NCBI GenBank assembly: GCA_965261545.1
Contig: CBDHDF010000002.1
Span: 32,001 to 96,000 of the forward strand
Source of the DNA: Bdellovibrionales bacterium
GTDB taxonomy: Bacteria > Bdellovibrionota > Bdellovibrionia > Bdellovibrionales > UBA1609
Length of the DNA: 64,000 nucleotides
Direction of reading: 5' to 3'
In this document: positions 3,774-62,686 of the stretch, in pieces
How positions within the stretch are numbered: the first letter of the stretch is position 1
Layout: every line of letters begins with the position of its first letter
Program-made: the position numbers and the translations under genes
Notes under the pieces: generated by a model
What the model was told of the DNA's origin: nothing
What the model saw: the letters and a program-made list of their open reading frames with translations, nothing else
Databases searched by the model: none

Positions 3774-6700
3774 TTGGTATTTAAGATGAAAAAATATGGA
3801 TTATTATTGATATGTATTATTTTTTGTATTTCAAATAGTAATATAAAAGAGAAATATAAAAATAAATTAGAGTTGAAAGGATATTTTTCACAGAAGAAAG
3901 TCTTAGAAACAATTTCCTTAATGGTTGATATTGATGGTGGAATTACTCCAGAAAGCAAATTGATTCATACTTTAGCACCTCATAATAATAAAATAATTGT
4001 ATATTCCGATGGGTCTAATATTTCAAAAATATCTACATGCCGTGACAGAGATACGAGCTTAGATAATATATTTTTTCATAGTTATTCAGGTGGAAATATT
4101 TCAGATGGAACTAACATATATATGTATTTCGATACAAAATATAAAAAATGGATTAAAGGTCTTGAAACTGCTCATTATGAAGGAGGAAGGCATCAACCTT
4201 GGTTGTCTAAAAATAATTTTTGTACATGGAAATCATATAAATCTAACATAGAAACCATATCCTATTTATTAAGAAATCTTTCGATTAGAAAAGAAGGGAA
4301 TGATAAAATACGTAAAAAAAATGGTATTTGGAAATATAGGTTGCTTCCGTCAAGAAAAACAAGATTTATTATTAATAAATTATATAAATTTACACCACTC
4401 TTTTTGAAAATAGAGAAAATATCTTCTTCAAAATGGACAGCATTAATCATAAAAAAAATATCTTCTTGTTATAGTGAAAATTGTGATGACTATGATAAGT
4501 TGGGAGTAGTTGTTGTACATGATAATGATAAAGACATTTGGTATTCTATCTCTGATTTCTTATATTATCCATCTAATTTAAAGATAAATAAAAATAGTGT
4601 TTATGCGACATTCTGTAGGAATATATTTCGTATGAGTAGAAAAAATCCATGTTTATATTCAAATTTTAGAATAAATTTATTGAATTTTAAATATATTGAT
4701 ATTGAGAAATACGTAGTTGGAAGCAGCATCATCCATGATTTAGTTTTATATGGGGATAAAGAAGCACTTATATTATTTCTTAATAATAAGAAAAATATAG
4801 ACATAAATATTAAAAATATTTCTGGAATCACTCCTCTTCATTATGCTATAAAGGATGAGAATATAGAGATAATTGATCTTCTGATTAAACATGGAGCGAA
4901 TGTAGATGAATATGGATGGTTCTATTTGCATAACATTAGTTATAACGGCTATCTTGAAATAGCTTCAATATTGATAAATAGTGGGGCTAAAATTAACGTG
5001 AAAGATCCGGGTGGCAAAACACCTTTGCATTTAGCAATTTTCGGTGGCCATTTGAGAATGGTATCTCTATTACTGAAGCATGAGGCAAAGGTTAATGAAG
5101 CGGATAAGGACGGCAAAACACCTTTGCATTTAGCAATTTCCGGTGGCCATTTGAGAATGGTATCTCTATTACTGAAGCATGAGGCAAAGGTTAATGAAGC
5201 GGATAAGGACGGCAAAACACCTTTACATTTAGCAAGTTCTGGTGGTCACTTGAAAATGGTATCTCCATTACTGAAGCATGAGGCAAAGGTTAATGAAGCG
5301 GATAAGGACGGCAAAACACCTTTACATTTAGCAAGTTCTGGTGGTCACTTGAAAATGGTATCTCTATTACTGAAGCATGAGGCAAAGGTTAATGAAGCGG
5401 ATAAGGACGGCAAAACACCTTTACATTTAGCAAGTTCTGGTGGTCACTTGAAAATGGTATCTCTATTACTGAAGCATGAGGCAAAAGTTAATGAAGCGGA
5501 TAAGGACGGCAAAACACCTTTACATTTAGCAAGTTCTGGTGGTCACTTGAAAATGGTATCTCTATTACTGAAGCATGAGGCAAAAGTTAATGAAGCGGAT
5601 AAGGACGGCAAAACACCTTTACATTTAGCAAGTTCTGGTGGTCACTTGAAAATGGTATCTCTATTATTGAAGCATGAGGCAGAAGTTAATGAAACAGATA
5701 AAGATGGACAAACATCTTTATATTTAGCAAGTTCCAATGGTCACCTCGGAGTAACTTTATTATTGATGAATCATGGAGCGAAAGCTAATGCCAAAAATAA
5801 GGATGGTCAAACATCTTTATATTTAGCAAGTTCCAATGGTCACCTCGGAGTAACTTTATTATTGATGAATCATGGAGCGAAAGCTAATGCCAAAAATAAG
5901 GATGGTCAAACACCCCTACATTTAGCAAGTTCTAATGGTCATTTAGAGATAGTTGCACTATTATTGAAATATGGATCGAAAGTTAATATAAAAAATAGAA
6001 ATGGGCAAACATCCTTACATTTAGCAAGTTCTGGTGGTCATCTAGAGGTAGTTTCATTATTATTGAAGTATGGATCGAAGGTTAATACAAAAGATAGAGA
6101 CGGAGAAGAGCCTCTGCATTTAGCAATTTCTAATGACCACTTAAAGATTGCGTCCCTACTAATGAAGGATGGAGATAAATCTTTTATCTTAAAAAATAAT
6201 ATAAAAAAAGAAAATGGAAATAAACTTCTAGGATATTTTTCTCAAAAAAAATTCTTAGAGAAGATTATCTTAATAAATGATAATGATAATGATAGTGGAG
6301 CTTTTGCTCCAAGTAAATTATTTCATATTAAAAAATCTTTTTATAAGAAAAAAATAATTGTATACTCCGATGGATCTAATATTTCAGAAATGTCTACATG
6401 TCGTGATAGAGAGACAGGTTTGGACAACATACTATTTCATAGTCATGCAGGCGGCAATATTTCAGATGGAACCAATATAGCTATGTATTTTGATATAAAA
6501 AATGAAAAATGGATTAAAGGTCTTGAAACTTATTATAATTATGGAGAGAACCATCCTCCATGGTTGTATAAAAAAGGTTTATGCACATGGAGATTGCATA
6601 AATCAAATTTAGAAAATCTTTCACAAATATTGAAGAACTTAGAAATAGGGGGAGGTAGTTCTAAAGAAATATCAATACCAGACGGGTCATGGAAATTTAA

Positions 6701-11172: not shown

Positions 11173-12393
11173 CAGCAGCCATTGATTACAATCATTTAAA
11201 AGATTTGCCCGACCATGAGAAGGCCAAAATTGCAGATATTCTTCTCAAAAGTTCAAGGGGGAATTTGGGAGGAAGGCGTCTCTTTCTAGCCAAGCAAAGC
11301 ACTCCTGAAAATGTTTGTGTGGAATTTTGGAGGGTGTCTTCGACCGACCAAAGAGATGGGTTTTCATTAAAAGCCCAAGAAGAGAAGGCCAAGGAGTACA
11401 GTGACCTTAACAGCCTTAAGAGTTCCAAAAATTGGTCGGTGAGTGAGTCTGCCTCCCAGGAGTTTGACCGAAAGAAATTTTTTGAAATGATTGATTATGT
11501 CACTGAAAACGGGATTAAGAATGTTGTCTTTGATAAAGTCGATCGAGCTTGTCGTGGTCTTAGGGCTGCGGTTGTGATTGAGGACCTTATCGAGTCAGGG
11601 GTTTGCTTTCATTTTGTCCGAGATAACCTTGTGGTGAACAAGGAGTCTGCCCCCAGTGAGAAGCTGCGGTTTTATCTCGGAGTTGTCTTGGCTAAGTGGT
11701 ATATTGATAACTTGAAGTCTGAGATCAAGAAAGGTCTTCATGGCCGCCTTGAAAATGGCTACTTCAATGCCAAAGCCCCTGTGGGCTATCGCAATGTTCG
11801 CCCTGAGTTTGGAAAAGCCAACCTTGAAGTACACCCAGAGATCGGCCCTTTTATTGCCGATTGCTTTGAACTCTACAAAACGGGCAATTATTCCAAAAAG
11901 GACTTGGAAAAAATTGGTTTGGAGAGAGGAATCAAGTGGATTGTGAAAAGAAGGGTCTTTGATAAAAACGGAGAAGCCCAGGTGGTGGTTCAAGAAAAGT
12001 TTGTCACCCATAAGGCTTTGGAGAGAGTGTTAAGTAACCCTGTCTATTGCCATTACAGACGAGTTTCCAAGAGTTCCCCAAATTATAAGAACTGTGGAGG
12101 CTCTAATGGTTTTACGGGGTCTAAGAAGGGGCTTACAGGCTCTGAGGGCTCTACAGACTCAAGAGGTAGAGGTTCTAGTGGCTCCAAGAGGAGCTGGAAA
12201 AGTCCTGGTGGCTTGAGTATGTGAAAAATGCCAAGTGGCCAGCTTTGATTAGCTTTGAGACCTTTATGGCTTGCCAGAAGATTCGTGGGATCAGAGCGCA
12301 GTCCACCAAGCTCAATTTGGCCGGCAGAGTCTCCAAGCCCCTCATGCAACTTATGAAGTGCGGGACCTGCGATCATCACATCACGGGGCAGTC
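11169..12393 (+). pseudogene. Large serine recombinase, 5' part (frameshifted near 12.1-12.2 kb, then cut by IS21)
   Basis: Catalytic WRVSSTDQ and DKVDRACR; recombinase domain APVGY...NPVY; continues in another frame as WPALISFETF...CGTC. Confidence 0.88.
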
Positions 12394-12960
12394 TGTTAGC
12401 TGACAATTAAAATGCCCCACCGTCGCCAATGAAAAGTGGCCACTTTTCAGAGGAGGACCTATGGTGATTTTTGGCATTGTCAACCGAGACGCATATAATC
12501 AATTGATATTACTCATAAAAAGGCTCCGAGCTGATAAGAACTCCTTTTGGGTTCTTGTCGACCTGGAAAGGGGCTCCGTGTTGGAGAGTCCTTCCATGAC
12601 AGCCTATTCAGGTTCCATATTTGTCATTTGTAGACTGTTTCTGGATTTCAATGAGGTTAAATATATAGTCAAGAAAAGCCTGTTTAGGCTGTGCCCATTT
12701 TCTAAAGTATTTAAATTCCACAAGATTCCAACATTTGCCTCAATTTTCATGGAATTTCTTTCTGAAGACAGGCTTCCCTTAAAGCCGTCGCCAATTAAAA
12801 TGTCCCACTTTCAATATGGAGGTTGTCGCCAATGAAAAGTGACCAATCTTCAGGGAGTGTTCAAATACTAGACAATGAAGTCTCTTCTTCTGATATAGAT
12901 ACTAAGCTCACAGAGTCCCTCCCTCTTGCAACTCAAAAGGTTAGCAATGAGGAGGATCTT

Positions 12961-14427
12961 ATGATTAGTCAATACACTTTCGGCCGCATTCGTGACCTGA
13001 GTCACAGTGGTAAAAATAAGACAGAAATATCTCGTGAATTAGGGATCAATCGTAAGACGGTGCGCAAGTACTGTGAGTCCAACACCCCACCGAAGTACAA
13101 GGCGAGGTCCAAAAGAACTCGCCCAGATCCCCTTAATGGATATATGGATCGGGTGAAGTACTTTTTGAAGTTGAACCCAAGTAACACCGCCCGTGAAATA
13201 TATGAGCTATTAGTTGAGGAGGGTTATCGTGGGAGTGAGAGAACGGTTCAGAGAAGAGTTTGTGAGATTCTTGGTTCTCGCCCCAAGGAGCGTTTTTTCA
13301 GCCAAAGATATGATCCTGGAGAACAGGCTCAGTTTGATTTTAAGGAGAAGGTTGCTTTACCATTTGCCGATGGTGTTCAGATCGTTCATCTCCATTTTGG
13401 AACATTGCCTTGTAGTGGCACCTGTTGGGTTCGTGCCTACCCCTTTCTTGTCTATGAGTGTTTCATCGATGGGGTGCATGCTTTTTTTGAAAAGATAGGT
13501 GGGATGAGTGCGAACATCCGTATTGATAATTTATCTCCCTGTGTGAAGAAAGTTCTTAAAGGAAATCAGCGAATTTACACCCAATCTTTTGATCGAGCCA
13601 TCCAATACTATGGATTTAAGGTTCTTCCCTGCCGCGCAGGGAAGGGCTCTGACAAGGGAGATGTGGAGCGTGATATTCGAACCTTCAGTTCTCGGATAAA
13701 AAATATTGTTAGAAACAAAGGAATTGTTTTTAAAGACTGGGATCATTTGAATCAGTTTTTAGAGTCTTATATGGATCAGCATCAGAGTGACTCCACCAAA
13801 TCTCGCTTTGAGGAGGAGGCCAAAGTTCTTAAGCCTTTGCCTCCACGAGATGAAGATATTCTCTGTAAGGTGAATATTTGTCAAAGTAATGGTTATGGGA
13901 CTTTGAGAATAGGTAAAACCACATATTCCATACCTGATGAGGTGATCCAAGCTCCCTGTAAAACCGTACAGGGTCCCTATCATGTCACGATCTATCGTGC
14001 AGGAGGGAAGCAAGAAATTGTCGCTCGCCATCAAAGAAAACCTGATGGGGAGCATAGTCTTCTTCTTGAACATATCCTTCCTTCTTTAGTTCGTAAGCCG
14101 CAAGCCATGGTAAGATGGGCTCACCGATCCATTCTTTTTCCAACAAATGTGTTTGAAAATTTTTATCAATACCTCAAGCAACAAGATTCAAGCCGTGCCG
14201 AGCATGAATATTTAAGAGTTATCAACTTGATTCAGCATGTGAGTTGGCAGGACTTATCTACAGCCATGGAGCTTCAATTAGAAAGTCGTGAGATTTTCGA
14301 CTTTAAATCCATAAAAGATTTGCTCTTAGGCAATCCCACCAAAATTAATTTGAATGACCAACAAAAACCACTTCAACCTAGATTGTCTCAATATGACAGT
14401 CTTGTTCCAAACATAGGAGGTTCTTAA
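12961..14427 (+). CDS. istA: IS21 transposase IstA
   Basis: N-terminal HTH (EISRELGINRKTVRKY), PGEQAQFDF, IDN and KGDVER DDE motifs; GAGGAG RBS favours ATG 12961 over the ORF-track start 12823. Confidence 0.93.
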   Translation: MISQYTFGRIRDLSHSGKNKTEISRELGINRKTVRKYCESNTPPKYKARSKRTRPDPLNGYMDRVKYFLKLNPSNTAREIYELLVEEGYRGSERTVQRRVCEILGSRPKERFFSQRYDPGEQAQFDFKEKVALPFADGVQIVHLHFGTLPCSGTCWVRAYPFLVYECFIDGVHAFFEKIGGMSANIRIDNLSPCVKKVLKGNQRIYTQSFDRAIQYYGFKVLPCRAGKGSDKGDVERDIRTFSSRIKNIVRNKGIVFKDWDHLNQFLESYMDQHQSDSTKSRFEEEAKVLKPLPPRDEDILCKVNICQSNGYGTLRIGKTTYSIPDEVIQAPCKTVQGPYHVTIYRAGGKQEIVARHQRKPDGEHSLLLEHILPSLVRKPQAMVRWAHRSILFPTNVFENFYQYLKQQDSSRAEHEYLRVINLIQHVSWQDLSTAMELQLESREIFDFKSIKDLLLGNPTKINLNDQQKPLQPRLSQYDSLVPNIGGS

Positions 14428-15209
14428 TGAATCACGAAGAACTTATAGGTTCTCTTAAAAAACTCCGACTTCCAGCGATGGCGGATGAATATGTTGCAAC
14501 GGCTAGAGTTGCCGAAAAAACAAAAAAGACGTATGAACAGTATTTAGGTATACTCGTTCAAAATGAGCTTGCTGACAAGCATTCCCAGAGAGTGAAAAGA
14601 TTGCTTAAGGGGGCCAAGCTTCCTCAACTTAAATCACTCCAAACTTATAACTTCCAGAAAAGAACGGGAGTGACAGCTCAGCAAATTAATTGGATGGCAG
14701 AGGGAGAGTGGGTCAGAAAAGCCTGTAATGTTGTGTTTTACGGAAGCTTTGGAATGGGGAAAAGTCATTTGGCCATGTCCCTAGTTCGTTCACTCTGTGA
14801 ACAAGGCTATCGATGTTTATGGGTCACCACTCATGAACTTATTGAAACAATGCGTGAAAGCAAGAAAGAACTCTCATTGAATGCTCTTTTTAAGAAATTA
14901 GACCGTTTTGATCTTATTGCTTGTGATGAACTTGGCTATACAGCTTCCTGCACAGAGGGGGCAGATCTTTTCTTTCAATTCATATCTCAGCGATATGAAA
15001 GGAAAAGTCTCATGATCACTACAAACTTAACTTACTCTGAATGGGATAAGGTGTTTCTTAACCCTATTACCACCGCTGCTGCTGTTGATCGAATTATTCA
15101 CAACTGTGAAACCCTCAACATTGAAGGAAAAGAAAGTTGGAGAACCGAATCCGCAAAAGCCAAGTCTAAACAGAGCAAAGAGGAAAGTTCAACCAAAGAA
15201 GTTCATTAG
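14427..15209 (+). CDS. istB: IS21 helper ATPase IstB
   Basis: Walker A GSFGMGKS, Walker B DELGY, ITTN, DRIIH. Confidence 0.95.
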   Translation: MNHEELIGSLKKLRLPAMADEYVATARVAEKTKKTYEQYLGILVQNELADKHSQRVKRLLKGAKLPQLKSLQTYNFQKRTGVTAQQINWMAEGEWVRKACNVVFYGSFGMGKSHLAMSLVRSLCEQGYRCLWVTTHELIETMRESKKELSLNALFKKLDRFDLIACDELGYTASCTEGADLFFQFISQRYERKSLMITTNLTYSEWDKVFLNPITTAAAVDRIIHNCETLNIEGKESWRTESAKAKSKQSKEESSTKEVH

Positions 15210-15261
15210 AGATCCCCACTTTTGGGGAAGGAACCCGCCAGTTATCCACAAAATTTATCCA

Positions 15262-15908
15262 ATCGAGTAGACAGTGGGAACTTCCCCCACTGCCCCTCAC
15301 AGACACGTACGTGACAGTCTCCCGTCATACGGCTCCTCTAATATTTGCGAGGTTCCACTATTGTAAACCATTTAAATGGACCACAGAGTGTCCGACTGGT
15401 TAGTGTTTCCTCACATATTAGGAGACCCCTTCGCTCCAGCTCCGTTACAGAACCTTCTTCACTACTACGAGTCTCTCTGCCCCTATCTGGTGTCATCGGT
15501 ATTTGCCCTTCGGTTTCCACCTTATAGCCGTTCCCTTAACATCCACCAGTAGGTTCCCCAGTTCCAACACGACGCCAAGTCTGTGCTCATGCCACCTTTA
15601 CGCCGGCTGCCACTCGGCCAGTAATCAGGTACCTTCCGAGTTTATCCCAAGGTACTACCGGGACCTTGGTTTTGACAGCAACTAACGCATTTTCGGCGCC
15701 TCATCGATGGTTCGCTTTCGCTCATCTTCACAGACTACACATGACCAGTTATTCTGGCCTTTTCCCTAACGCTCACCACCCAGGTCTTGCCCCCTGCGCA
15801 GCTTAGGGTTGTTTGTTCCCAATTCCTGTAAATCGAGAACGGTGGACCTACCACCATCATCATGTCAGCTTTCTATAGTCGTTACCTCCTATATTGTGCT
15901 GGGCACAC
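15262..15908 (-). ncRNA. ORF-less group II intron (IIB-like), 647 nt
   Basis: Minus strand begins GTGTGCCC and ends CTACTCGAT; domain V GAGCCGTATGACGGGAGACTGTCACGTACG; domain VI hairpin with bulged A; cleanly absent from IS21 copy 2 (3893-647=3246 bp). Confidence 0.93.
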
Positions 15909-16286
15909 CAGCAGCACTGCGTTGCTAGACATCGGGGTCACAGCCGCAGTGTCGCCATGGATAAATTTATGGATAACTGGCTTTTACCGTACTATTTGCT
16001 CGTCACTCTCGCGGAGCTTTAGACATTAGCTGCGCCAAGGAATCCTGAAAAATACTCCATTTACCTCTGCCATAGGGCTGAAGGATGCATTTGGGGTCAT
16101 GCCAAAAGTGGTGGGCAGAAAATCATTCCTCAGAATCTTGTGGCATAGTCCGAGTTAAATGATGAGCAAAATAAAGACACTTGACTAAACTCTGAACGAA
16201 GAATAACTAAATCAGTACATCATCAACTGGCCGTTTTTCATTGGCGACGGCTTCTAAAAATGGCCAATTTTAATTGGCGCCTAACA

Positions 16287-16955
16287 CAGTCTAAGAAAAA
16301 AGCATCAGGCAAGATTTATACCTATTATCATTGTGCCAATAAGAGGTGTGAGCAAAATGGTGTGTACACGGAGCAAAGAAGACTCATTGCGCAGTTCTCG
16401 GCGGCCTTTGAGCCCTTTCAGCGTTTTACTCCAAAGGCTACGGCTGCCTTTATAAAAATGGTGCAAGGTCGTATCAGCCAACTGAGTGGGCACTCCACAG
16501 AAAAGGTCAACCAACTTCGAGAAAAGAAAACCCAGCTTCAAGATCGTATGGCACAGATTCATGATCTTTATGAAAAGGGCTTATTGAGCCACGAGGAAGC
16601 CTTGGAGTTTCAGGCCATAAAAGAACGGGAGCTTGAAAAAATTGGAAAAGATATAATGCTTCACGGTATTTCTGTAACGCAAGGTGGAGAAAGGAGTTGG
16701 GGAGGCGTATCAGAAGTTCAAGGGGATTGGCGGATTGCGTTAGATCTCATAGAACTTTTGAAAACATCTCATGATTTCATGCAGTTAGATGGCTTTGAGG
16801 GCCAAAAAGCACGGATCTATAGATCCATGCTCTCGAACCCGACTTTAAAAGATGGAACTATTGAATATCGCTATGCAAAATGGTTTGCGGACCTCCTGTT
16901 ATTGACAGGGGGTCGCAACTGGTGGAGGTGGTGGGAATTGAACCCACGTCCATAA
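16287..16955 (+). pseudogene. Large serine recombinase, 3' part (Zn-ribbon and coiled coil), ending inside ssrA
   Basis: Removing IS21 restores HITGQS-KKKASGKIYTYYHC; the C-terminus WWRWWELNPRP is the antisense reading of the tmRNA 3' end. Confidence 0.88.
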
Positions 16956-17277
16956 GTCTTTCACATTAAGGCAAAGCTACATGCTTAGTCTATGTTTTAT
17001 AGGTGACTTATAGACCTCCACAGACAAAGTGCTATAAGTCCCTCCTCCAGATGATTTAAGTCGCAACTCCTGGAGAAACCAAATTTGCGACCGAGGTAGT
17101 TTGAGTGACATCTCTCCATACCCACTACCTTAGTGCGAAGAGATGTAGCTGAACCGATTAGGCAGCTAGTGCATAGTTGCTATTATCAACTATAGTTTTA
17201 CCCGTTTTGAAGAGGACCTCGGGTGCCTCTGCATGCTCCTTAAGCTTCAATACCCATGTCGAATCCGTGTCACCCCC
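16920..17277 (-). ncRNA. ssrA: tmRNA; predicted tag (A)DNSNYALAA*
   Basis: 5' GGGGGTGACACGGATTCGAC; 3' GTGGGTTCAATTCCCACCACCTCCACCA with G3-U pair in the acceptor stem; internal TAGTT-GAT AAT AGC AAC TAT GCA CTA GCT GCC TAA. Confidence 0.96.
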
Positions 17278-41676: not shown

Positions 41677-42106
41677 TGTTAGGCGCCAATTAAAATTGGC
41701 CATTTTTAGAAGCCGTCGCCAATGAAAAACGGCCAGTTGATGATGTACTGATTTAGTTATTCTTCGTTCAGAGTTTAGTCAAGTGTCTTTATTTTGCTCA
41801 TCATTTAACTCGGACTATGCCACAAGATTCTGAGGAATGATTTTCTGCCCACCACTTTTGGCATGACCCCAAATGCATCCTTCAGCCCTATGGCAGAGGT
41901 AAATGGAGTATTTTTCAGGATTCCTTGGCGCAGCTAATGTCTAAAGCTCCGCGAGAGTGACGAGCAAATAGTACGGTAAAAGCCAGTTATCCATAAATTT
42001 ATCCATGGCGACACTGCGGCTGTGACCCCGATGTCTAGCAACGCAGTGCTGCTGTGGATAAATTTTGTGGATAACTGGCGAGTTCCTTCCCCAAAAGTGG
42101 GGATCT

Positions 42107-42889
42107 CTAATGAACTTCTTTGGTTGAACTTTCCTCTTTGCTCTGTTTAGACTTGGCTTTTGCCGATTCGGTTCTCCAACTTTCTTTTCCTTCAATGTTG
42201 AGGGTTTCACAGTTGTGAATGATTCGATCAACAGCAGCAGCGGTGGTAATAGGGTTAAGAAACACCTTATCCCATTCAGAGTATGTTAAGTTTGTAGTGA
42301 TCATGAGACTTTTCCTTTCATATCGCTGAGATATGAATTGAAAGAAAAGATCTGCCCCCTCTGTGCAGGAAGCTGTATAGCCAAGTTCATCACAAGCAAT
42401 AAGATCAAAACGGTCTAATTTCTTAAAAAGAGCATTCAATGAGAGTTCTTTCTTGCTTTCACGCATTGTTTCAATAAGTTCATGAGTGGTGACCCATAAA
42501 CATCGATAGCCTTGTTCACAGAGTGAACGAACTAGGGACATGGCCAAATGACTTTTCCCCATTCCAAAGCTTCCGTAAAACACAACATTACAGGCTTTTC
42601 TGACCCACTCTCCCTCTGCCATCCAATTAATTTGCTGAGCTGTCACTCCCGTTCTTTTCTGGAAGTTATAAGTTTGGAGTGATTTAAGTTGAGGAAGCTT
42701 GGCCCCCTTAAGCAATCTTTTCACTCTCTGGGAATGCTTGTCAGCAAGCTCATTTTGAACGAGTATACCTAAATACTGTTCATACGTCTTTTTTGTTTTT
42801 TCGGCAACTCTAGCCGTTGCAACATATTCATCCGCCATCGCTGGAAGTCGGAGTTTTTTAAGAGAACCTATAAGTTCTTCGTGATTCAT
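42107..42889 (-). CDS. istB: IS21 helper ATPase IstB
   Basis: Same protein sequence as 14427-15209. Confidence 0.95.
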   Translation of the reverse strand: MNHEELIGSLKKLRLPAMADEYVATARVAEKTKKTYEQYLGILVQNELADKHSQRVKRLLKGAKLPQLKSLQTYNFQKRTGVTAQQINWMAEGEWVRKACNVVFYGSFGMGKSHLAMSLVRSLCEQGYRCLWVTTHELIETMRESKKELSLNALFKKLDRFDLIACDELGYTASCTEGADLFFQFISQRYERKSLMITTNLTYSEWDKVFLNPITTAAAVDRIIHNCETLNIEGKESWRTESAKAKSKQSKEESSTKEVH

Positions 42890-44355
42890 TAAGAACCTCC
42901 TATGTTTGGAACAAGACTGTCATATTGAGACAATCTAGGTTGAAGTGGTTTTTGTTGGTCATTCAAATTAATTTTGGTGGGATTTCCTAAGAGCAAATCT
43001 TTTATGGATTTAAAGTCGAAAATCTCACGACTTTCTAATTGAAGCTCCATGGCTGTAGATAAGTCCTGCCAACTCACATGCTGAATCAAGTTGATAACTC
43101 TTAAATATTCATGCTCGGCACGGCTTGAATCTTGTTGCTTGAGGTATTGATAAAAATTTTCAAACACATTTGTTGGAAAAAGAATGGATCGGTGAGCCCA
43201 TCTTACCATGGCTTGCGGCTTACGAACTAAAGAGGGAAGGATATGTTCAAGAAGAAGACTATGCTCCCCATCAGGTTTTCTTTGATGGCGAGCGACAATT
43301 TCTTGCTTCCCTCCTGCACGATAGATCGTGACATGATAGGGACCCTGTACGGTTTTACAGGGAGATTGGATCACCTCATCAGGTATGGAATATGTGGTTT
43401 TACCTATTCTCAAAGTCCCATAACCATTACTTTGACAAATATTCACCTTACAGAGAATATCTTCATCTCGTGGAGGCAAAGGCTTAAGAACTTTGGCCTC
43501 CTCCTCAAAGCGAGATTTGGTGGAGTCACTCTGATGCTGATCCATATAAGACTCTAAAAACTGATTCAAATGATCCCAGTCTTTAAAAACAATTCCTTTG
43601 TTTCTAACAATATTTTTTATCCGAGAACTGAAGGTTCGAATATCACGCTCCACATCTCCCTTGTCAGAGCCCTTCCCTGCGCGGCAGGGAAGAACCTTAA
43701 ATCCATAGTATTGGATGGCTCGATCAAAAGATTGGGTGTAAATTCGCTGATTTCCTTTAAGAACTTTCTTCACACAGGGAGATAAATTATCAATACGGAT
43801 GTTCGCACTCATCCCACCTATCTTTTCAAAAAAAGCATGCACCCCATCGATGAAACACTCATAGACAAGAAAGGGGTAGGCACGAACCCAACAGGTGCCA
43901 CTACAAGGCAATGTTCCAAAATGGAGATGAACGATCTGAACACCATCGGCAAATGGTAAAGCAACCTTCTCCTTAAAATCAAACTGAGCCTGTTCTCCAG
44001 GATCATATCTTTGGCTGAAAAAACGCTCCTTGGGGCGAGAACCAAGAATCTCACAAACTCTTCTCTGAACCGTTCTCTCACTCCCACGATAACCCTCCTC
44101 AACTAATAGCTCATATATTTCACGGGCGGTGTTACTTGGGTTCAACTTCAAAAAGTACTTCACCCGATCCATATATCCATTAAGGGGATCTGGGCGAGTT
44201 CTTTTGGACCTCGCCTTGTACTTCGGTGGGGTGTTGGACTCACAGTACTTGCGCACCGTCTTACGATTGATCCCTAATTCACGAGATATTTCTGTCTTAT
44301 TTTTACCACTGTGACTCAGGTCACGAATGCGGCCGAAAGTGTATTGACTAATCAT
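42889..44355 (-). CDS. istA: IS21 transposase IstA
   Basis: Near-identical to 12961-14427. Confidence 0.93.
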   Translation of the reverse strand: MISQYTFGRIRDLSHSGKNKTEISRELGINRKTVRKYCESNTPPKYKARSKRTRPDPLNGYMDRVKYFLKLNPSNTAREIYELLVEEGYRGSERTVQRRVCEILGSRPKERFFSQRYDPGEQAQFDFKEKVALPFADGVQIVHLHFGTLPCSGTCWVRAYPFLVYECFIDGVHAFFEKIGGMSANIRIDNLSPCVKKVLKGNQRIYTQSFDRAIQYYGFKVLPCRAGKGSDKGDVERDIRTFSSRIKNIVRNKGIVFKDWDHLNQFLESYMDQHQSDSTKSRFEEEAKVLKPLPPRDEDILCKVNICQSNGYGTLRIGKTTYSIPDEVIQSPCKTVQGPYHVTIYRAGGKQEIVARHQRKPDGEHSLLLEHILPSLVRKPQAMVRWAHRSILFPTNVFENFYQYLKQQDSSRAEHEYLRVINLIQHVSWQDLSTAMELQLESREIFDFKSIKDLLLGNPTKINLNDQQKPLQPRLSQYDSLVPNIGGS

Positions 44356-44927
44356 AAGATCCTCCTCATTGCTAACCTTTTGAGTTGCAAAAGGGAGGGA
44401 CTCTGTGAGCTTAGTATCTATATCAGAAGAAGAGACTTCATTGTCTAGTATTTGAACACTCCCTGAAGATTGGTCACTTTTCATTGGCGACAACCTCCAT
44501 ATTGAAAGTGGGACATTTTAATTGGCGACGGCTTTAAGGGAAGCCTGTCTTCAGAAAGAAATTCCATGAAAATTGAGGCAAATGTTGGAATCTTGTGGAA
44601 TTTAAATACTTTAGAAAATGGGCACAGCCTAAACAGGCTTTTCTTGACTATATATTTAACCTCATTGAAATCCAGAAACAGTCTACAAATGACAAATATG
44701 GAACCTGAATAGGCTGTCATGGAAGGACTCTCCAACACGGAGCCCCTTTCCAGGTCGACAAGAACCCAAAAGGAGTTCTTATCAGCTCGGAGCCTTTTTA
44801 TGAGTAATATCAATTGATTATATGCGTCTCGGTTGACAATGCCAAAAATCACCATAGGTCCTCCTCTGAAAAGTGGCCACTTTTCATTGGCGACGGTGGG
44901 GCATTTTAATTGTCAGCTAACACAATA

Positions 44928-45893
44928 CGCCTTAGTTGAGGATGGTAAGGTATTTCGAATCAATGACAACAATAAAAACTTCTTCGAAGGTTCTGTTGGA
45001 GAGTTTAAAAGATTGGAAAATCAATGGATTGTTAATAATTACGAAAATTTTATAAAAAAACTGAAAACTCCAAATTCATATCTGATGAATCGGGAGTAAT
45101 GAAAGTGGCTTTGGCTTCAAAAAAACAAACAGAGGTTTTTAGTATTAAGCATCACAGAATTCCAGAAGACCTTGATCTGGATTACTACAAAAAAGGTTCG
45201 GCCATGAAAGGGGCTTATTATTCCGCCGCTTTTATCATAAGAACTCTTGTCGCAGAAACACTAGATATTAACCCGGAGGAACTCGAAATAGGAAATATCG
45301 TTGGAACCAAAGTGAATCAAAAAACAGGAGGAGAGATCAGAATCAATGATAGCTTGCCTAACGGGGCTGGATTTTCCACCTGGATAAAGGAAAATATTTC
45401 GGACATTCTGAAGAAAATAAAATCTGAAAACAGTGACAGTGCTTTTATAAAAAAAATTTACTCTGAGGTTCATCAAGAAGATTGCAAATCCTCCTGCCAC
45501 CTCTGTTTGAAAGCTTATCGTAACATTAACTATCATGGACTTCTGGACTGGCGACTTGGGATATCTCTTCTCAAAAGCTTTATTGACATGAATTATAAAG
45601 CCGGACTAGACGGTAACTTCCGGGAGCCAGAATTAAAAGGTTGGAAAGAAAATACGAAATTATTAAGAGATGAATTTTGTAAGAATTTTCCATCGTGTTC
45701 TCCAAGGAATTTTAAAGAACTTTCTGGTTTCTCGGTTAACGAAGCAAATATTGTTATTCTTCATCCTTTTTGGACTAAAAATTCTCCCTTAGTCAAAAAG
45801 TCTATCAATGGTAATGAATGCAAAATCATTGATACGTTCAATTTATTAAGAAGACCCAGTTTTGTTTACAAAGAAATTGCCGAGTTTCCTTAA
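44928..45893 (+). pseudogene. druE: DruE-like helicase, 3' part with DUF1998-type Cys cluster; extra frameshift at the A-run near 45054-45060
   Basis: In-frame continuation QY-ALVEDGKVFRINDN after IS removal; DSLPNGAGF, CKSSCHLCL, HGLLDWRLG. Confidence 0.75.
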
Positions 45894-49860: not shown

Positions 49861-50262
49861 TGGTCTTCCTCCTTTGGTAAAACCACCAGTGGTTGGTTTA
49901 TGTTTATTTTCTATTTGGTTTTAAGCCCAGTTTTGGGCTTTGTTCATAGCAGTTTTCAAGCTGCCTTATCTTATGGCCACCATGGAGCCGGCCGTTTTGT
50001 CAATATTTCTTGAATCATTATTTTGTGGAATGAACGGCCGCATAAACTTGAGCTTCATTTTTCGTAACATTCATGGGGGCGCCTTGCTTCCCCACCCACG
50101 CCCATGAATCTTATCTAGGCCCCCACTTCTTTGCACGAAGCAACTCGGTGGACAGCTTCGCTGGTCTATATAATTGGCCTCTTTTAGTTACTCTGGACTT
50201 TTGATGGTATTTTTGTCATGTATGATTCCGATACAATAAAGGATAAAGCAATAACATTATTG

Positions 50263-50449
50263 GAAGGTGATAAGATGAGTGGCCGTTGAATAGATTGGTA
50301 ATTTTAATTCCGTGAAGTAACATGGTCTTGAGCTTTGGATCGAACCCACGCATGTACCTGCACTCTGAGTGTATGGACGTATAGTAAGTTGACCTATTTT
50401 CGCTTTAGAATTTATGGCAAAATCCCAAGGCTCTAGTTTTATCACCTTC
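50263..50449 (+). ncRNA. Candidate IS110 bridge/seek RNA (second copy at ~51967-52153)
   Basis: Non-coding left end closed by an 11-bp stem GAAGGTGATAA/TTATCACCTTC; contains short matches to target and donor flanks. Confidence 0.55.
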
Positions 50450-50477
50450 TTTTTTTCTAACAGAAAGGAGGAGTCAT

Positions 50478-51680: not shown

Positions 51681-52181
51681 TGTAGGATGATTTAAAAACT
51701 CGGACATTTGAAAAAATTCGAAGAACGGATAGTGGATTCGTGCGTCCAAACTACCCCGGAGATTCATAGTAACATTCATGGGGGCGCCTTGCTTCCCCAC
51801 CCACGCCCATGAATCTTTCTAGGCCCCCACTTCTTTGCACGAAGCAACTCGGTGGACAGCTTCGCTGGTCTATATAATTGGCCTCTTTTAGTTACTCTGG
51901 ACTTTTGATGGTATTTTTGTCATGTATGATTCCGATACAATAAAGGATAAAGCAATAACATTATTGGAAGGTGATAAGATGAGTGGCCGTTGAATAGATT
52001 GGTAATTTTAATTCCGTGAAGTAACATGGTCTTGAGCTTTGGATCGAACCCACGCATGTACCTGCACTCTGAGTGTATGGACGTATAGTAAGTTGACCTA
52101 TTTTCGCTTTAGAATTTATGGCAAAATCCCAAGGCTCTAGTTTTATCACCTTCTTTTTTTCTAACAGAAAGGAGGAGTCAT

Positions 52182-53382: not shown

Positions 53383-53483
53383 TGTAGGATGATTTAAAAA
53401 CTCGGACATTTGAAAAAATTCGAAGAACGGATAGTGGATTCGTGCGTCCAAACTACCCCGGAGATTCATAGTAACTATTCAGG

Positions 53484-57576: not shown

Positions 57577-58898
57577 TAAACCTCCTATTAACCATTTATC
57601 GGCTAATTTATAGCCAAACTTAAGCCAAAAACTAGCTCATATCAACTTCTTTTTAAATATAATAATAACAAATACTTAGGTTACATACCATTCTCTTGTT
57701 CTTCTTAAGGACTTTAGTCAGGACACTTTCTAATGAGTTTAATGGGAGAATCCACAGGTGTTTCTTTTATTGATGCAAGAACTGGCGTCCCCGGTCCCAA
57801 GATAAGCGAACACCCCCAAGTTGTGGAAAGGGTGTACTCGATGGAGTGGAGGCGGCTTTCTAGACATTTTGGGCGTTCTGGGCCATAGATCTGGAAAACC
57901 TAAGGAGGGCTGAGTTTGACTTTACAAGGAACTGGCAAATTTCCTTATGGGCTCTCGCAGCAGTCTGTTTTGTAATGATCTGGCCTGCGCATTGGCTCAT
58001 AAAAGAGGTAACTTTGGATGGTGCGATATTTTTGAGCTAATCGCCGATGGACTCATAAATATCTTACCCTAGATTGAGTTGTTGTTAGCTGACAATTAAA
58101 ATGCCCCACCGTCGCCAATGAAAAGTGGCCACTTTTCAGAGGAGGACCTATGGTGATTTTTGGCATTGTCAACCGAGACGCATATAATCAATTGATATTA
58201 CTCATAAAAAGGCTCCGAGCTGATAAGAACTCCTTTTGGGTTCTTGTCGACCTGGAAAGGGGCTCCGTGTTGGAGAGTCCTTCCATGACAGCCTATTCAG
58301 GTTCCATATTTCTCATTTGTAGACTGTTTCTGGATTTCAATGAGGTTAAATATATAGTCAAGAAAAGCCTGTTTAGGCTGTGCCCATTTTCTAAAGTATT
58401 TAAATTCCACAAGATTCCAACATTTGCCTCAATTTTCATGGAATTTCTTTCTGAAGACAGGCTTCCCTTAAAGCCGTCGCCAATTAAAATGTCCCACTTT
58501 CAATATGGAGGTTGTCGCCAATGAAAAGTGACCAATCTTCAGGGAGTGTTCAAATACTAGACAATGAAGTTTCTTCTTCTGATATAGATACTAAGCTCAC
58601 AGAGTCCCTCCCTCTTGCAACTCAAAAGGTTAGCAATGAGGAGGATCTTATGATTAGTCAATACACTTTCGGCCGCATTCGTGACCTGAGTCACAGTGGT
58701 AAAAATAAGACAGAAATATCTCGTGAATTAGGGATCAATCGTAAGACGGTGCGCAAGTACTGTGAGTCCAACACCCCACCGAAGTACAAGGCGAGGTCCA
58801 AAAGAACTCGCCCAAATCCCCTTAATGGATATATGGATCGGGTGAAGTACTTTTTGAAGTTGAACCCAAGTAACACCGCCCGTGAAATATATGAGCTA

Positions 58899-60797
58899 CC
58901 TGAAATCCCTAAAAGTTGTAACTAGGTGTAGGACTTAAGTCCTGATTATTGTCTGAGAAGGCCTTCACTTTGATTAAGAGATTGTCATCTCTTCAAAAGC
59001 ATAGTTACAATATTAACGATGTCATACACTTTTGAGCAAAAAAATAAGGGAAAAACCTATGTCTATAAAGTTGAAAGCTTTTGGGACAAGGAAAAAAAGC
59101 AGGCCAGGCAAAAACGCATCTACCTTGGAAGAAAGGATGAGTTTACAGGTCAAATTAAGACCAAAAGAAAAAAGATTCCCATAGGCTCCTATAATGTGGG
59201 AGCCTTATTTTTCTTAGAGAAAATATGCGAACAACTAAATCTTCTAAAAACATTGTCTAAAATTTATCCAGATAATTACGAACATTATTTGCATTTAGCT
59301 TTTTTTAAAATAATCAAAAGAGAGCCCTTTTATCTTTACGATATGTGGTGTCAAGAAGCTTATGTTTCAAAGAAAAATTTTATGTCGTCACAAAAAATAA
59401 GCAATCTCTTATGTGATCTTGGGAGAGATCAAAAAAAGATAGAATCTTTCTTTAGCGAATGGATAAATCAAGTGAAGGGTTCTGGTACGGTAATGTTTGA
59501 CATCACATCCTTTTCTTCCTACTCTATGAATAATGAATTTTTAGAGAAAGGTTACAACAGAGATGGAGAGAATCTCGAACAAATAAACTTAGGTCTGATA
59601 AGTAGGAAATCTGAAGACAATAAAACTCATACGCCTATAGCGTACAGAATCTATCCTGGAAGTATACCGGATGTCAAAACTTTATCGAATATTATTGAGA
59701 TCATAACAAGTTATAAATTAGATTTAGATTGTTTAGTTATGGATAAGGGTTTTTCTAGTGTAGAAAATATTAAGGGACTGCATCGTAAGGAATTGAAGTA
59801 TTTGATACCCATGAGTTTTAGAACAAAACTCTCAAGAGAGCTTGCTGTGGCTTTAAATGAGAAAATAAAATCTCCATCATGCTCTTTTACTTTTAATGAG
59901 GAAATTTATTCGCATTGCAAAGAATCAATAAAAATCGGAGGATTTGATTGTACGGCTCATATTTTCTTAGACAAAGAAAGAAGGGTTTATGAGGAATCTG
60001 TGTTAATGAAAGAGTTGCTTGATTTTATGAAACTCTTTCTTGAGAAAGATTTGAAATCAGAAGAACAAGCTAGTTCCTATATGAAAGAAACTTTAGGAAA
60101 TAAAAAAAGGTTTCTCAATATCTCTGATTGCACTCCATTTAAGATTTCTTTAAATGAAGAAAATATTAATGAAGAATCTTCTACGCTGGGTATTATGATA
60201 TTAATTACAAATAGTCATGATTTAAAGAAAACAAATATATTGAGTTTATATCGAAACAAAGATATCATTGAGAAAGTATTTTTCTCATTCAAGCATGATA
60301 TTAATGGAAGGAGAAGTCGAGTTCATTCTCTCATGAATATGAGGGGAAGCATCTTTATTAATTTTCTCTCTTTAATTTTAATTTCACATATTGATACTGT
60401 TATGAAAGATAAGAAGTTATATAAAAAAATGTCTAAAATAGAAATTTACAAAATGATGGACCGATTAAAATTTTATGAATTAGCTACAGGTGATCTGATG
60501 CTTGGAGAGCTGTCTAAAAAACAAAAGGATATTTTTTCAGCCTTCCAAATAGATGGGCTTCCCAAGACAAAATGATGTTTTTTATCTGTTTCAAATGTGA
60601 CGGTGGCTGTGGCTACCACTATGCCTCATCTATCCAATGGGGACGAAGAGGACCTTTCGCAGCAAATTCTTATGAATCATATTAAATATATTAATACTAT
60701 TAAACCTCTCAAACCGTTGACAGCAGCCAATTCCATAGGAAGAGAGGAAAGTTAACGCAATACATTAAACCTAGTTACAACTTTTAGGGATTTCAGG
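58899..60797 (+). mobile_element. IS1634-family element
   Basis: ~28-bp perfect TIR CCTGAAATCCCTAAAAGTTGTAACTAGG; 6-bp TSD GAGCTA at 58893-58898 and 60798-60803. Confidence 0.93.
59019..60575 (+). CDS. IS1634-family transposase
   Basis: FDITSFSSYS, GYNRDG...QINLGL, MDKGF, YRNKDIIEKVF. Confidence 0.88.
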   Translation: MSYTFEQKNKGKTYVYKVESFWDKEKKQARQKRIYLGRKDEFTGQIKTKRKKIPIGSYNVGALFFLEKICEQLNLLKTLSKIYPDNYEHYLHLAFFKIIKREPFYLYDMWCQEAYVSKKNFMSSQKISNLLCDLGRDQKKIESFFSEWINQVKGSGTVMFDITSFSSYSMNNEFLEKGYNRDGENLEQINLGLISRKSEDNKTHTPIAYRIYPGSIPDVKTLSNIIEIITSYKLDLDCLVMDKGFSSVENIKGLHRKELKYLIPMSFRTKLSRELAVALNEKIKSPSCSFTFNEEIYSHCKESIKIGGFDCTAHIFLDKERRVYEESVLMKELLDFMKLFLEKDLKSEEQASSYMKETLGNKKRFLNISDCTPFKISLNEENINEESSTLGIMILITNSHDLKKTNILSLYRNKDIIEKVFFSFKHDINGRRSRVHSLMNMRGSIFINFLSLILISHIDTVMKDKKLYKKMSKIEIYKMMDRLKFYELATGDLMLGELSKKQKDIFSAFQIDGLPKTK

Positions 60798-62686
60798 GAG
60801 CTATTAGTTGAGGAGGGTTATCGTGGGAGTGAGAGAACGGTTCAGAGAAGAGTTTGTGAGATTCTTGGTTCTCGCCCCAAGGAGCGTTTTTTCAGCCAAA
60901 GATATGATCCTGGAGAACAGGCTCAGTTTGATTTTAAGGAGAAGGTTGCTTTACCATTTGCCGATGGTGTTCAGATCGTTCATCTCCATTTTGGAACATT
61001 GCCTTGTAGTGGCACCTGTTGGGTTCGTGCCTACCCCTTTCTTGTCTATGAGTGTTTCATCGATGGGGTGCATGCTTTTTTTGAAAAGATAGGTGGGATG
61101 AGTGCGAACATCCGTATTGATAATTTATCTCCCTGTGTGAAGAAAGTTCTTAAAGGAAATCAGCGAATTTACACCCAATCTTTTGATCGAGCCATCCAAT
61201 ACTATGGATTTAAGGTTCTTCCCTGCCGCGCAGGGAAGGGCTCTGACAAGGGAGATGTGGAGCGTGATATTCGAACCTTCAGTTCTCGGATAAAAAATAT
61301 TGTTAGAAACAAAGGAATTGTTTTTAAAGACTGGGATCATTTGAATCAGTTTTTAGAGTCTTATATGGATCAGCATCAGAGTGACTCCACCAAATCTCGC
61401 TTTGAGGAGGAGGCCAAAGTTCTTAAGCCTTTGCCTCCACGAGATGAAGATATTCTCTGTAAGGTGAATATTTGTCAAAGTAATGGTTATGGGACTTTGA
61501 GAATAGGTAAAACCACATATTCCATACCTGATGAGGTGATCCAATCTCCCTGTAAAACCGTACAGGGTCCCTATCATGTCACGATCTATCGTGCAGGAGG
61601 GAAGCAAGAAATTGTCGCTCGCCATCAAAGAAAACCTGATGGGGAGCATAGTCTTCTTCTTGAACATATCCTTCCCTCTTTAGTTCGTAAGCCGCAAGCC
61701 ATGGTAAGATGGGCTCACCGATCCATTCTTTTTCCAACAAATGTGTTTGAAAATTTTTATCAATACCTCAAGCAACAAGATTCAAGCCGTGCCGAGCATG
61801 AATATTTAAGAGTTATCAACTTGATTCAGCATGTGAGTTGGCAGGACTTATCTACAGCCATGGAGCTTCAATTAGAAAGTCGTGAGATTTTCGACTTTAA
61901 ATCCATAAAAGATTTGCTCTTAGGCAATCCCACCAAAATTAATTTGAATGACCAACAAAAACCACTTCAACCTAGATTGTCTCAATATGACAGTCTTGTT
62001 CCAAACATAGGAGGTTCTTAATGAATCACGAAGAACTTATAGGTTCTCTTAAAAAACTCCGACTTCCAGCGATGGCGGATGAATATGTTGCAACGGCTAG
62101 AGTTGCCGAAAAAACAAAAAAGACGTATGAACAGTATTTAGTTCCTGTCCAGGGAAGAAAGTTAAGTAGTTTTAAGTATTTACATGCCTTCCCTTTAGAT
62201 TTTATGCTTTAAAATGGAGTCCATCAAACATAATCCGTGTAAATTCAGTTACTTACATAAAACGGAAAAATAAAATAAGTTCCCCCCCCTCTCTTGACGA
62301 ACCTTTCACAGCCCCTCCCTTTCAGTGACTTATGTGGCTATCAACTGGTTACTTGATATGAGAGGAAGAGTTGGATCAACCTGTGTTTCCACCGTGGTGA
62401 TTTCAAACCTCCTTCAGGGAAATAACATTACGTTGCGCATCAACTTCAAAAAATACTTGACGTGTTTTTTCAGAGAAATAATTTTTGATATTTTATTCTT
62501 CATTTATTTTTTATGTAGGTTTTAGGAGGCGTGGGAACCTCTCTATGAGGTAGAATTCTTATCCATGTTCTCCGAGAACCTCTCTGATTTTTTTCTTCTT
62601 AAAAGACATCCTTGCTCACTTTTTTCCCTCAAAAAAACGTATGTTAATATAAAAATTAAAGAGAAACTTTCACCAAAGGGGGGACT

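What the first reader, a model, noticed from the sequence alone, without database searches (positions are those of the whole stretch)
15262..15908. ORF-less group II intron inserted in an IS21, with the empty allele in the same window
Seen: IS21 copy 1 differs from copy 2 by one 647-nt insert with no duplication. On the minus strand it begins GUGUG, ends AU, and has domains V and VI. Domain IV is only a tidy ~85-nt hairpin (CTAATAT...ATATTAG) with no reverse transcriptase remnant. The loop of CCAAGGT-cccggtagt-ACCTTGG carries CGGUAG (plus-strand 15655-15660), which pairs with the last six 5'-exon bases CUGCUG using two G-U pairs. UGCGUU (15684-15689) pairs perfectly with exon AACGCA at -15 to -10. 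Known: these are EBS1/IBS1 and EBS2/IBS2 pairings, and retrohoming needs an intron-encoded RT; none is in this window. Inference: a non-autonomous ribozyme mobilised in trans that targets a non-coding part of a multicopy IS and could then spread by transposition. The near-identity of the IS copies suggests a recent event.
Basis: partly seen in the sequence, partly recalled or inferred. Interest (0 to 1): 0.85.

Follow-up and report, generated by a model that had tools for sequence, protein, structure and literature searches.

The report
ORF-less group II intron in IS21
A small self-splicing mobile intron that has lost its own reverse-transcriptase gene sits inside one copy of a jumping gene; it is real and is one of about twenty such mini-introns in this genome, but elements of this kind are already known.

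Summary
Window 15262-15908 (minus strand) is an exact 647-nt insert in one IS21-family copy, with the uninterrupted site in a second copy. Rfam finds a group II D1 motif (RF01999, 93.4 bits) and DV/DVI (RF00029, 43.6 bits). Domains I-III fold with strong covariation. There is no RT remnant.

It is RmInt2-like (class D / IIB3-like), not IIC. Family A has 4 full copies plus 1 chimera, 1 interrupted copy and 3 fragments. It fills 5 of 79 IS21 sites and 2 of 76 sites in the inverted repeats of an IS1634-family element. A sister ORF-less family B (11 copies) was already reported by this scan on other DNA of this genome.

The only related RT-encoding intron (family E) is broken in 3 of 3 copies, so trans-mobilisation was probably recent but may have stopped. 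Three IS21 haplotypes carry the intron, which argues against spread by transposition of one composite. DV has two mispairs beside the catalytic AGC, and this is unexplained.

Verdict: a new member of a known kind.

The parts
15262..15908 (-). ORF-less group II intron, family A, 647 nt
   Evidence: Exact extra insert between IS21 copies. Rfam RF01999 and RF00029 match. Six-domain fold.
15558..15868 (-). Domain I (approximate limits, intron positions 41-351)
   Evidence: Basal helix and sub-helices with compensatory changes. The RF01999 match lies at 15740-15855.
15684..15689 (-). EBS2 (UGCGUU) in an internal loop of subdomain ID
   Evidence: Complementary to AACGCA in the 5' exon. ACGCA is kept at both unrelated target types. 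The loop is homologous to the one that holds the experimentally defined EBS2 GAACU of RmInt2 (PMC4615759 passages).
15653..15660 (-). EBS1 (CGGUAG, extendable to CGGUAGUA) in the terminal loop of hairpin CCAAGG/CCUUGG
   Evidence: 8 contiguous pairs with the last 8 exon bases. In 6 of 6 related introns the homologous loop pairs 7-8 nt with that intron's own exon. The 30 non-cognate pairings give 1-6.
15909..15916 (-). IBS1 (5'-exon positions -1 to -8, UGCUGCUG)
15918..15923 (-). IBS2 (5'-exon positions -10 to -15, AACGCA)
15261..15261 (-). First 3'-exon base (T), candidate IBS3
   Evidence: T follows 6 of 6 A-type 3' ends printed (4 full copies, the interrupted copy and the fragment C11:811574). 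The EBS3 partner was not located.
15338..15421 (-). Domain IV, an 84-nt hairpin without an ORF
   Evidence: No RT hit.
15302..15335 (-). Domain V with an AGC triad and two mispairs (G x G, C x U) in the triad helix
15263..15300 (-). Domain VI; the unpaired A at 15268 is the candidate branch point
   Evidence: Consensus fold; column 649 is unpaired.
12394..16286 (+). IS21-family copy 1 (3246 bp plus the intron): istA 12823-14427, istB 14427-15209
   Evidence: NF033546 at 205 bits and NF038214 at 238 bits, both above their cut-offs. Limits from 79 copies.
41677..44922 (-). IS21-family copy 2 with the empty site at 42054|42055
58083..62141 (+). IS21-family copy 3, interrupted at 58899-60797 by a DDE_Tnp_1 IS and again after 62141. 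Its intron site lies beyond the window and is empty.

Best explanation
The insert is a non-autonomous (ORF-less) group II intron of the RmInt1/RmInt2 type: bacterial class D, IIB3-like RNA.

Inferred mechanism. An intron lariat bound to a reverse transcriptase supplied in trans reverse-spliced into one strand of an IS21-family copy. The site is read by base pairing: EBS1 with (U)GCUGCUG at -1 to -8, EBS2 with AACGCA at -10 to -15, and T at +1. The lariat was then copied into DNA.

The most likely RT donor is the related family-E intron of the same genome. Its RT has no endonuclease domain, so priming at replication forks, as in RmInt1, is expected. All E copies are now broken, so family A may be stranded today.

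Shown: the insert, the fold, the pairings, the copy census, the site occupancy and the state of the RT genes.
Inferred: splicing activity, the RT donor, the timing, and the current state of mobility.
For: Insert and fold:
- Exact insert with the empty allele in the same window.
- Rfam D1 and DV/DVI hits.
- 35 compensatory pairs between A and B, and 64 among 6 introns, with 0 of 500 shuffles as high.

Target recognition:
- Two unrelated targets (IS21 3' end and IS1634-family TIR) share only ACGCA, 1-2 nt, TGCUGCUG|T.
- Cognate EBS1/IBS1 pairing is 7-8 bp in 6 of 6 introns, against 1-6 bp in the 30 non-cognate pairings.

Class D affinity:
- RF01999 also matches RmInt2 of S. meliloti GR4 at 107 bits.
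- A aligns with RmInt2 through D1-D3.
- The E RT is 50% identical to the 419-aa GR4 IEP, stops just after domain X, and ends ARARPQLFVHW. That fits 7 of the 8 fixed positions of the class D motif quoted in PMC4615759.

Independent homing:
- 5 of 79 IS21 sites and 2 of 76 TIR sites are filled.
- The 3 typable intron-bearing IS21 copies have 3 haplotypes.

Public contigs:
- In two runs of one sample, which may be the source of the assembly (so not independent), contigs hold both the empty joint and the intron body.
Against: - No intact class-D-type RT frame is in the assembly (96.8% complete). 0 of 3 E copies is intact, and a further fragment at C10:794894-795325 carries a stop.
- A and E are only distantly alike in RNA (nhmmer E 4e-29 over HMM positions 140-496), so E is not the direct parent.
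- DV of all 6 A copies that include DV has two mispairs next to the catalytic triad. Its predicted stability is -11.5 kcal/mol, against -12.8 to -20.9 for B and three relatives. Recalled mutational work on aI5-gamma (from memory, no paper read) would predict impaired self-splicing.
- No expression or splicing data exist; no RNA run was listed.
- A copies show no strand bias relative to GC skew: 3 of 7 at 20 kb.
Confidence: 0.8

Rival explanations
1. The intron reached this IS21 copy without any RT. Either a single IS21-plus-intron composite transposed, or ectopic gene conversion among the roughly 79 near-identical IS21 copies carried it across.
For: IS21 copies are 99.2-100% identical over 3.2 kb, which is ample homology for conversion. 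Introns in 3 haplotypes fit conversion as well as they fit homing.
Against: Three haplotypes argue against a single transposing composite. Only one full-length composite is seen. Neither route explains the precise insertions at two IS1634-family TIR sites, which share only about 14 nt with the IS21 site.
Confidence: 0.12
2. Family A is still mobile today, driven by the intact RTs of the structurally different families C or D (RF02005 type). That would be cross-class trans-mobilisation.
For: A copies are 99.4-100% identical. Intact RT frames exist: 463 aa in 2 copies and 495 aa in 4 copies. A family-C intron and A copies lie next to or inside each other.
Against: The C and D RTs are at most 38% identical to the E RT, and their RNAs carry a different D1 motif. 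In the passages read, cross-help is reported only among closely related introns (PMC2882425; PMC4615759).
Confidence: 0.08
3. Family A is a catalytically dead relic. The DV change abolished splicing, and the shared DV reflects homogenisation among copies, not mobility of this variant.
For: G x G and C x U lie opposite the triad. B and 3 of 3 outside relatives keep GGUUC. The RF00029 score falls from 66 to 43.6 bits.
Against: The same DV occurs in 6 of 6 A copies, at four or more distinct sites with matching IBS. It is simpler to suppose that the master copy already had it.
Confidence: 0.1
4. The insert is an assembly artefact that joins an intron to an IS copy.
For: The IS and the intron are both multicopy, and short-read contigs break at the junctions.
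Against: The same junctions recur at three loci of the assembly. One contig of run X1 reaches 30 nt across 15908|15909, one short of the tool's 31-nt bridging rule. The boundaries fit GUGUG...AU and the EBS/IBS pairing exactly.
Confidence: 0.01

Closest known systems
RmInt2 of Sinorhizobium meliloti GR4 (class D, IIB3; PMC4615759, passages read)
   Same: Both carry the Rfam D1 motif RF01999. D1-D3 are alignable with conserved helices. The EBS1 hairpin and EBS2 loop are homologous. Both have a linker of 2 nt or more between IBS1 and IBS2. Both target the inverted repeats of an IS, giving two sites per IS: family A's second target is the IS1634-family TIR, 12 nt from the tip. Head-to-tail intron copies occur in the genome, for family B.
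   Different: RmInt2 encodes its own 419-aa IEP, while the window's intron has an 84-nt DIV and no ORF. The EBS sequences and targets differ. A's DV has two mispairs, whereas RmInt2's DV is fully paired.
ORF-less TeI3 introns of Thermosynechococcus elongatus (PMC2882425, passages read)
   Same: [quoted passage not shown] Nested intron arrangements occur. Mobilisation in trans is the proposed route.
   Different: The TeI3 introns are IIB1 (as PMC8643678 states). They keep clear ORF remnants with a shared deletion break-point, and they have intact driver IEPs that were tested experimentally. Here no ORF remnant was found (DIV compared by eye), 0 of 3 related RT genes are intact, and nothing was tested at the bench.
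Sister ORF-less family B of the same genome
   Same: B is 71% identical to A, with the same fold and 35 compensatory pairs. It is also ORF-less and also sits in a multicopy element.
   Different: B is 626 nt with a canonical DV and a different EBS1 (GUUGUCU) and target. It has 11 copies.
RmInt1 in ISRm2011-2 (PMC4615759, passages; PMC8643678, passages)
   Same: An endonuclease-less class D intron whose natural home is a multicopy insertion sequence.
   Different: It is autonomous and its mobility has been shown experimentally.

Membership tests
Group II intron ribozyme | 5' GUGYG and 3' AY boundaries | tested here: met
   GUGUG...GAU at 15908 and 15262.
Group II intron ribozyme | Domain V/VI matching RF00029 at or above the gathering score, with an AGC triad and a bulged A in DVI | tested here: met
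   43.6 bits against a cut-off of 40. Unpaired A at 15268. Caveat: two mispairs in the triad helix.
Group II intron ribozyme | Conserved domain I-III fold supported by covariation | tested here: met
   RF01999 at 93.4 bits. 64 of 114 pairs change on both sides, and 0 of 500 shuffles are as high.
Group II intron ribozyme | Self-splicing through a lariat | not testable with these tools
   No RNA run was listed. Ligated exons cannot be told from the 74 empty copies.
Bacterial class D / IIB3 (RmInt1, RmInt2) | RNA structure of the class: D1 motif and alignable D1-D3, with EBS2 in an internal loop of ID | tested here: met
   RF01999 matches both A and the GR4 intron identified as RmInt2. The EBS2 loop is homologous (PMC4615759).
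Bacterial class D / IIB3 (RmInt1, RmInt2) | IEP without D/En domains and with the C-terminal motif LX3AX3PXLF[V/A]HW | tested here: inconclusive
   The window's intron has no IEP. Its nearest RT-encoding relative, family E, ends after domain X with ARARPQLFVHW (7 of 8 fixed positions) and is 50% identical to the GR4 419-aa IEP. No RT tree with class references was built.
   Domain I is about 310 nt. EBS2/IBS2 is 5-6 bp and kept at two target types. The triad is AGC. The D1 motif is that of RmInt2.
Non-autonomous ORF-less bacterial introns mobilised in trans (TeI3 type) | No IEP ORF in DIV | tested here: met
   DIV is 84 nt. No RT or maturase hit in the three ORFs of 60 aa or more inside the insert.
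Non-autonomous ORF-less bacterial introns mobilised in trans (TeI3 type) | Several copies at different sites that fit the EBS sequences | tested here: met
   7 occupied sites of two IS families, plus one further 3' junction.
Non-autonomous ORF-less bacterial introns mobilised in trans (TeI3 type) | A related intron with a working IEP in the same genome | tested here: not met
   Related family E is present, but 0 of 3 copies has an intact RT frame. The intact RTs belong to RF02005-type introns. The assembly is 96.8% complete, so a missing copy is possible.
Non-autonomous ORF-less bacterial introns mobilised in trans (TeI3 type) | Mobilisation by an IEP supplied in trans | not testable with these tools
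   This needs a mobility assay.
IS21 family (host element) | IstA transposase and IstB helper ATPase | tested here: met
   NF033546 at 205.2 bits (cut-off 160) and NF038214 at 238.2 bits (cut-off 200). PF01695 at 194 bits.

The most novel reading that the evidence does not exclude
Families A and B are an orphaned lineage of class-D mini-introns that outlived their own RT and are kept mobile by RTs of structurally different introns (families C or D). On this reading, A tolerates a domain V whose catalytic-triad helix is mispaired. That would be a step towards a shared, trans-acting splicing and mobility apparatus in a bacterium, across intron classes.
Probability: 0.07. Interest if true: 0.7.

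Novelty: new member of a known kind. Interest (0 to 1): 0.38.

Why it matters

This genome adds a case with two ORF-less families of RmInt-like RNA, about 20 copies in all. Each is aimed at multicopy insertion sequences. Every copy of the related RT gene has been knocked out by other mobile elements.

It is a natural system in which to ask three questions:
- How long does a non-autonomous intron persist after its driver is lost?
- Can unrelated RTs take over as drivers?
- Can a mispaired catalytic-triad helix still work?

It does not show a new kind of element.

Tried and rejected
- Strand bias against GC skew, as expected for endonuclease-less introns. In 20-kb flanks B is 10 of 11 positive but A only 3 of 7. 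Skew in this genome is patchy, and B copies share a repeated host element. Inconclusive.
- Promoter and terminator scan of 15100-17000. It found 3 promoter-like sites against 2.4 expected, so no information.
- Public runs. No RNA holder was listed.
- Contigs of 4 runs break at the repeat borders. None bridges a junction by 31 nt or more; the best reaches 30 nt across 15908|15909 in X1. In X5 and X6 the intron body has no cover.
- DNA search in 40 related genomes found the intron in 0 of 40.
- Pattern scan of genome contigs with a 19-base D3 motif gave 6 loci. By my own estimate about 4 are expected by chance. Only 3 of the 6 are group II introns.
- EBS2a/IBS2a pairing of IIB1/IIB2 introns (PMC8643678). 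I saw no fitting pair by eye, and the paper itself reports none for the RmInt1 lineage.
- ORF remnants in DIV. A short resemblance between B's DIV and the start of the E ORF was seen by eye only. I do not rely on it.
- PDB sequence search with the E RT. The best match is T.el4h at 88 bits, too weak to assign a class.
- Literature search for a map from Rfam D1D4 models to intron classes found none in the passages read.

Full report
**1. The observation**

The repeat search finds two inverted arms: 12385-15261 with 42055-44931, and 15909-16286 with 41677-42054. They abut in the second copy, so the first copy carries exactly 647 extra bases (15262-15908) with no duplication. One search prints the long arm as 100% identical, but megablast gives 99.72% over 2868 nt. 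The short arm is 100% identical.

Read on the minus strand, the insert starts GUGUG and ends GAU. Rfam at gathering thresholds gives only three hits in the whole window:
- a tmRNA;
- RF01999 (group-II-D1D4-2) at 15740-15855, with 93.4 bits;
- RF00029 (DV/DVI) at 15262-15337, with 43.6 bits.

The host element has an IS21-family IstA (NF033546, 205 bits) and IstB (NF038214, 238 bits). The intron lies 52 nt past the istB stop, antisense to both genes and 378 nt from the IS end.

**2. The fold**

The single sequence folds at -237.4 kcal/mol, z -5.26. Aligned with the sister family B (71% identical), the consensus fold has six domains, and 35 of its 179 pairs change on both sides.

I then aligned the first 470-505 nt of six introns: A, B, an intron from S. 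meliloti GR4, and three introns found by a pattern scan (Alphaproteobacteria, Thermoleophilaceae and Bacillota MAGs). This gives 114 pairs. Cells are 93.7% paired against 77.2 +/- 1.0 in shuffles. 64 pairs change on both sides against 33.8 +/- 3.7. No shuffle in 500 reaches either value, and slid controls give 12-23 such pairs.

DIV is an 84-nt hairpin. The three ORFs of 60 aa or more inside the insert have no RT or maturase hit at E<=1.

**3. Exon-binding sites**

Three lines of evidence support the assignments.

- *Conserved target bases.* All A-type 5' junctions read ACGCA, 1-2 nt, TGCTGCTG before the intron, and T follows all 6 A-type 3' ends printed. These sites belong to two unrelated elements: the IS21 3' end, and both terminal inverted repeats of a 1915-bp IS1634-family element (NF033559, 384 bits). 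In the latter the insertion point is 12 nt from the tip.
- *EBS1 across relatives.* In 6 of 6 related introns, the loop homologous to A's EBS1 forms 7-8 contiguous pairs with that intron's own last exon bases. The 30 non-cognate combinations give 1-6. The 5' ends of the three MAG introns were set by me from the start motif and the alignment.
- *EBS2 location.* A's UGCGUU lies in the internal loop that, in the GR4 intron, holds GAACU. The Toro laboratory defined GAACU as the EBS2 of RmInt2 by selection experiments (PMC4615759, passages).

The IBS2-IBS1 linker is 2 nt in IS21 and 3 nt in the TIR sites (my reading).

**4. What kind of group II intron**

The GR4 locus has:
- a 419-aa RT ORF;
- RF01999 at 107 bits;
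- the target CTAGTGC at -16 to -10, with -11 unpaired against GAACU;
- A at +1.

These match what PMC4615759 reports for RmInt2 in the ISRm17 inverted repeats, so I take the locus to be RmInt2.

In the window's genome, RF01999 hits 23 places. All are A or B copies or fragments. Introns with intact RT frames (family C with 463 aa, family D with 495 aa) carry RF02005 instead.

One RT-encoding family, E, aligns with A and B over D1-D3 (nhmmer E 4e-29). Its RT is 50% identical to the GR4 IEP, has RVT_1 plus GIIM and nothing beyond, and ends ARARPQLFVHW. That fits 7 of the 8 fixed positions of the class D motif quoted in the paper.

A is therefore RmInt-like (class D / IIB3-like).

**5. Census**

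| Item | Count |
|---|---|
| Genome | 4.3 Mb in 11 contigs |
| RF00029 matches | 43, of which 27 over the cut-off |
| Family A | 4 full copies (99.4-100% identical), 1 A/B chimera, 1 copy split by a nested intron, 3 fragments |
| Family B | 11 copies |
| IS21 sites | 74 empty, 5 occupied |
| IS1634-family TIR sites | 74 empty, 2 occupied (one at each kind of end) |

Of the 5 occupied IS21 sites, 3 show both junctions and 2 show only the 5'-exon side.

The three intron-bearing IS21 copies that can be typed carry three different IS21 haplotypes, and each haplotype is shared with empty copies. This fits repeated homing, or gene conversion. It does not fit transposition of one composite.

**6. The RT question**

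No RVT_1 match lies in the window. All three E loci are broken:
- one by an IS insertion plus an in-frame stop and a 5' truncation;
- one by two frameshifts and loss of the 5' RNA to another IS21-like element;
- one is a fragment.

The assembly is 96.8% complete, so a missing copy is possible.

**7. An unexplained point**

A's DV reads ...ACGUGUC, where B, RmInt2 and two MAG relatives read ...ACGGUUC. This puts G x G and C x U opposite the G and C of the AGC triad and lowers the predicted stability to -11.5 kcal/mol. All 6 A copies that include DV share this sequence. The simplest reading is that the master copy had it and was still mobile. Family E has G x A at the same G.

**8. Public runs**

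Two runs of one sample, perhaps the source of the assembly and therefore not independent, hold the empty joint (15261|15909, depth 58.8 and 220.9) and contigs over the intron body (about 9.5-15 and 29). One loose end is the 5' end of the nested family-C intron. No RNA run was listed.

**9. Comparison and verdict**

The closest known cases are:
- RmInt2, for the RNA type and the IS inverted-repeat target;
- the ORF-less TeI3 introns of T. elongatus, for non-autonomous proliferation (PMC2882425, passages).

A review calls bacterial ORF-less introns rare and usually accompanied by related IEP-encoding introns (PMC4424553, passages). This scan had already reported sister family B on other DNA of this genome, and an intron homing into IS21 end repeats.

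The finding is real and well formed. It is a new member of a known kind, with two loose ends worth a bench test: the dead cognate RT and the mispaired DV.

The earlier AI note that the organism is related to the Bdellovibrio group was not checked here.

Noticed in passing
G000:C2:390314-390939 and 10 other places (L016, L015): Sister ORF-less family B (626 nt). At least 8 copies sit at one site...ATGGATATCAAGACAAT|AGGCAAGG..., just after an apparent start codon of a third multicopy element. About 57 sites of that element are empty.
   Followed up: partly
L046 (G000:C10:508700-511700): A family-A copy in IS21 is split at intron position 290/291 by a 2161-nt family-C intron with an intact 463-aa RT, inserted on the opposite strand. 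A contig end in a public run shows the same junction.
   Followed up: partly
L005 (G000:C2:463512-464144): A chimeric intron. It is A-type up to about position 370 and B-type after that. Its 5' exon is IS21 and its 3' exon is non-IS21. This looks like recombination between an A copy and a B copy.
   Followed up: partly
L016 (G000:C2:405046-406297) and G000:C11:524997-525747: Head-to-tail family-B copies with no exon between them, like the tandem products reported for RmInt2.
   Followed up: no
G000:C2:263342-263415: A family-C-like intron 3' end sits in front of the same 3' exon (AGGCAAGGAACT) that family B uses. Two different intron types therefore share one site.
   Followed up: no
window 16920-17277 (-): A tmRNA gene (175.8 bits) lies on the same strand as the intron, about 1 kb upstream. 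Read-through from it could transcribe this intron copy. This is inference only.
   Followed up: no
window 4858-6147: Eleven tandem copies of a 99-nt unit, 65-100% identical to the reference copy.
   Followed up: no
window 50114-53383 and 58899-60797: Further repeated elements: two copies about 1.7 kb apart, and a DDE_Tnp_1 IS (518-aa ORF) inside IS21 copy 3.
   Followed up: no
L044, L045 (G000:C11:342000-346167 and 870416-874400): The family-E introns have G x A opposite the G of the AGC triad. A family-C intron starts directly after the last base of one E copy.
   Followed up: no
whole genome G000: Very heavy IS load: about 79 IS21-family copies, 25 full IS1634-family copies, and many elements nested in one another.
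   Followed up: partly
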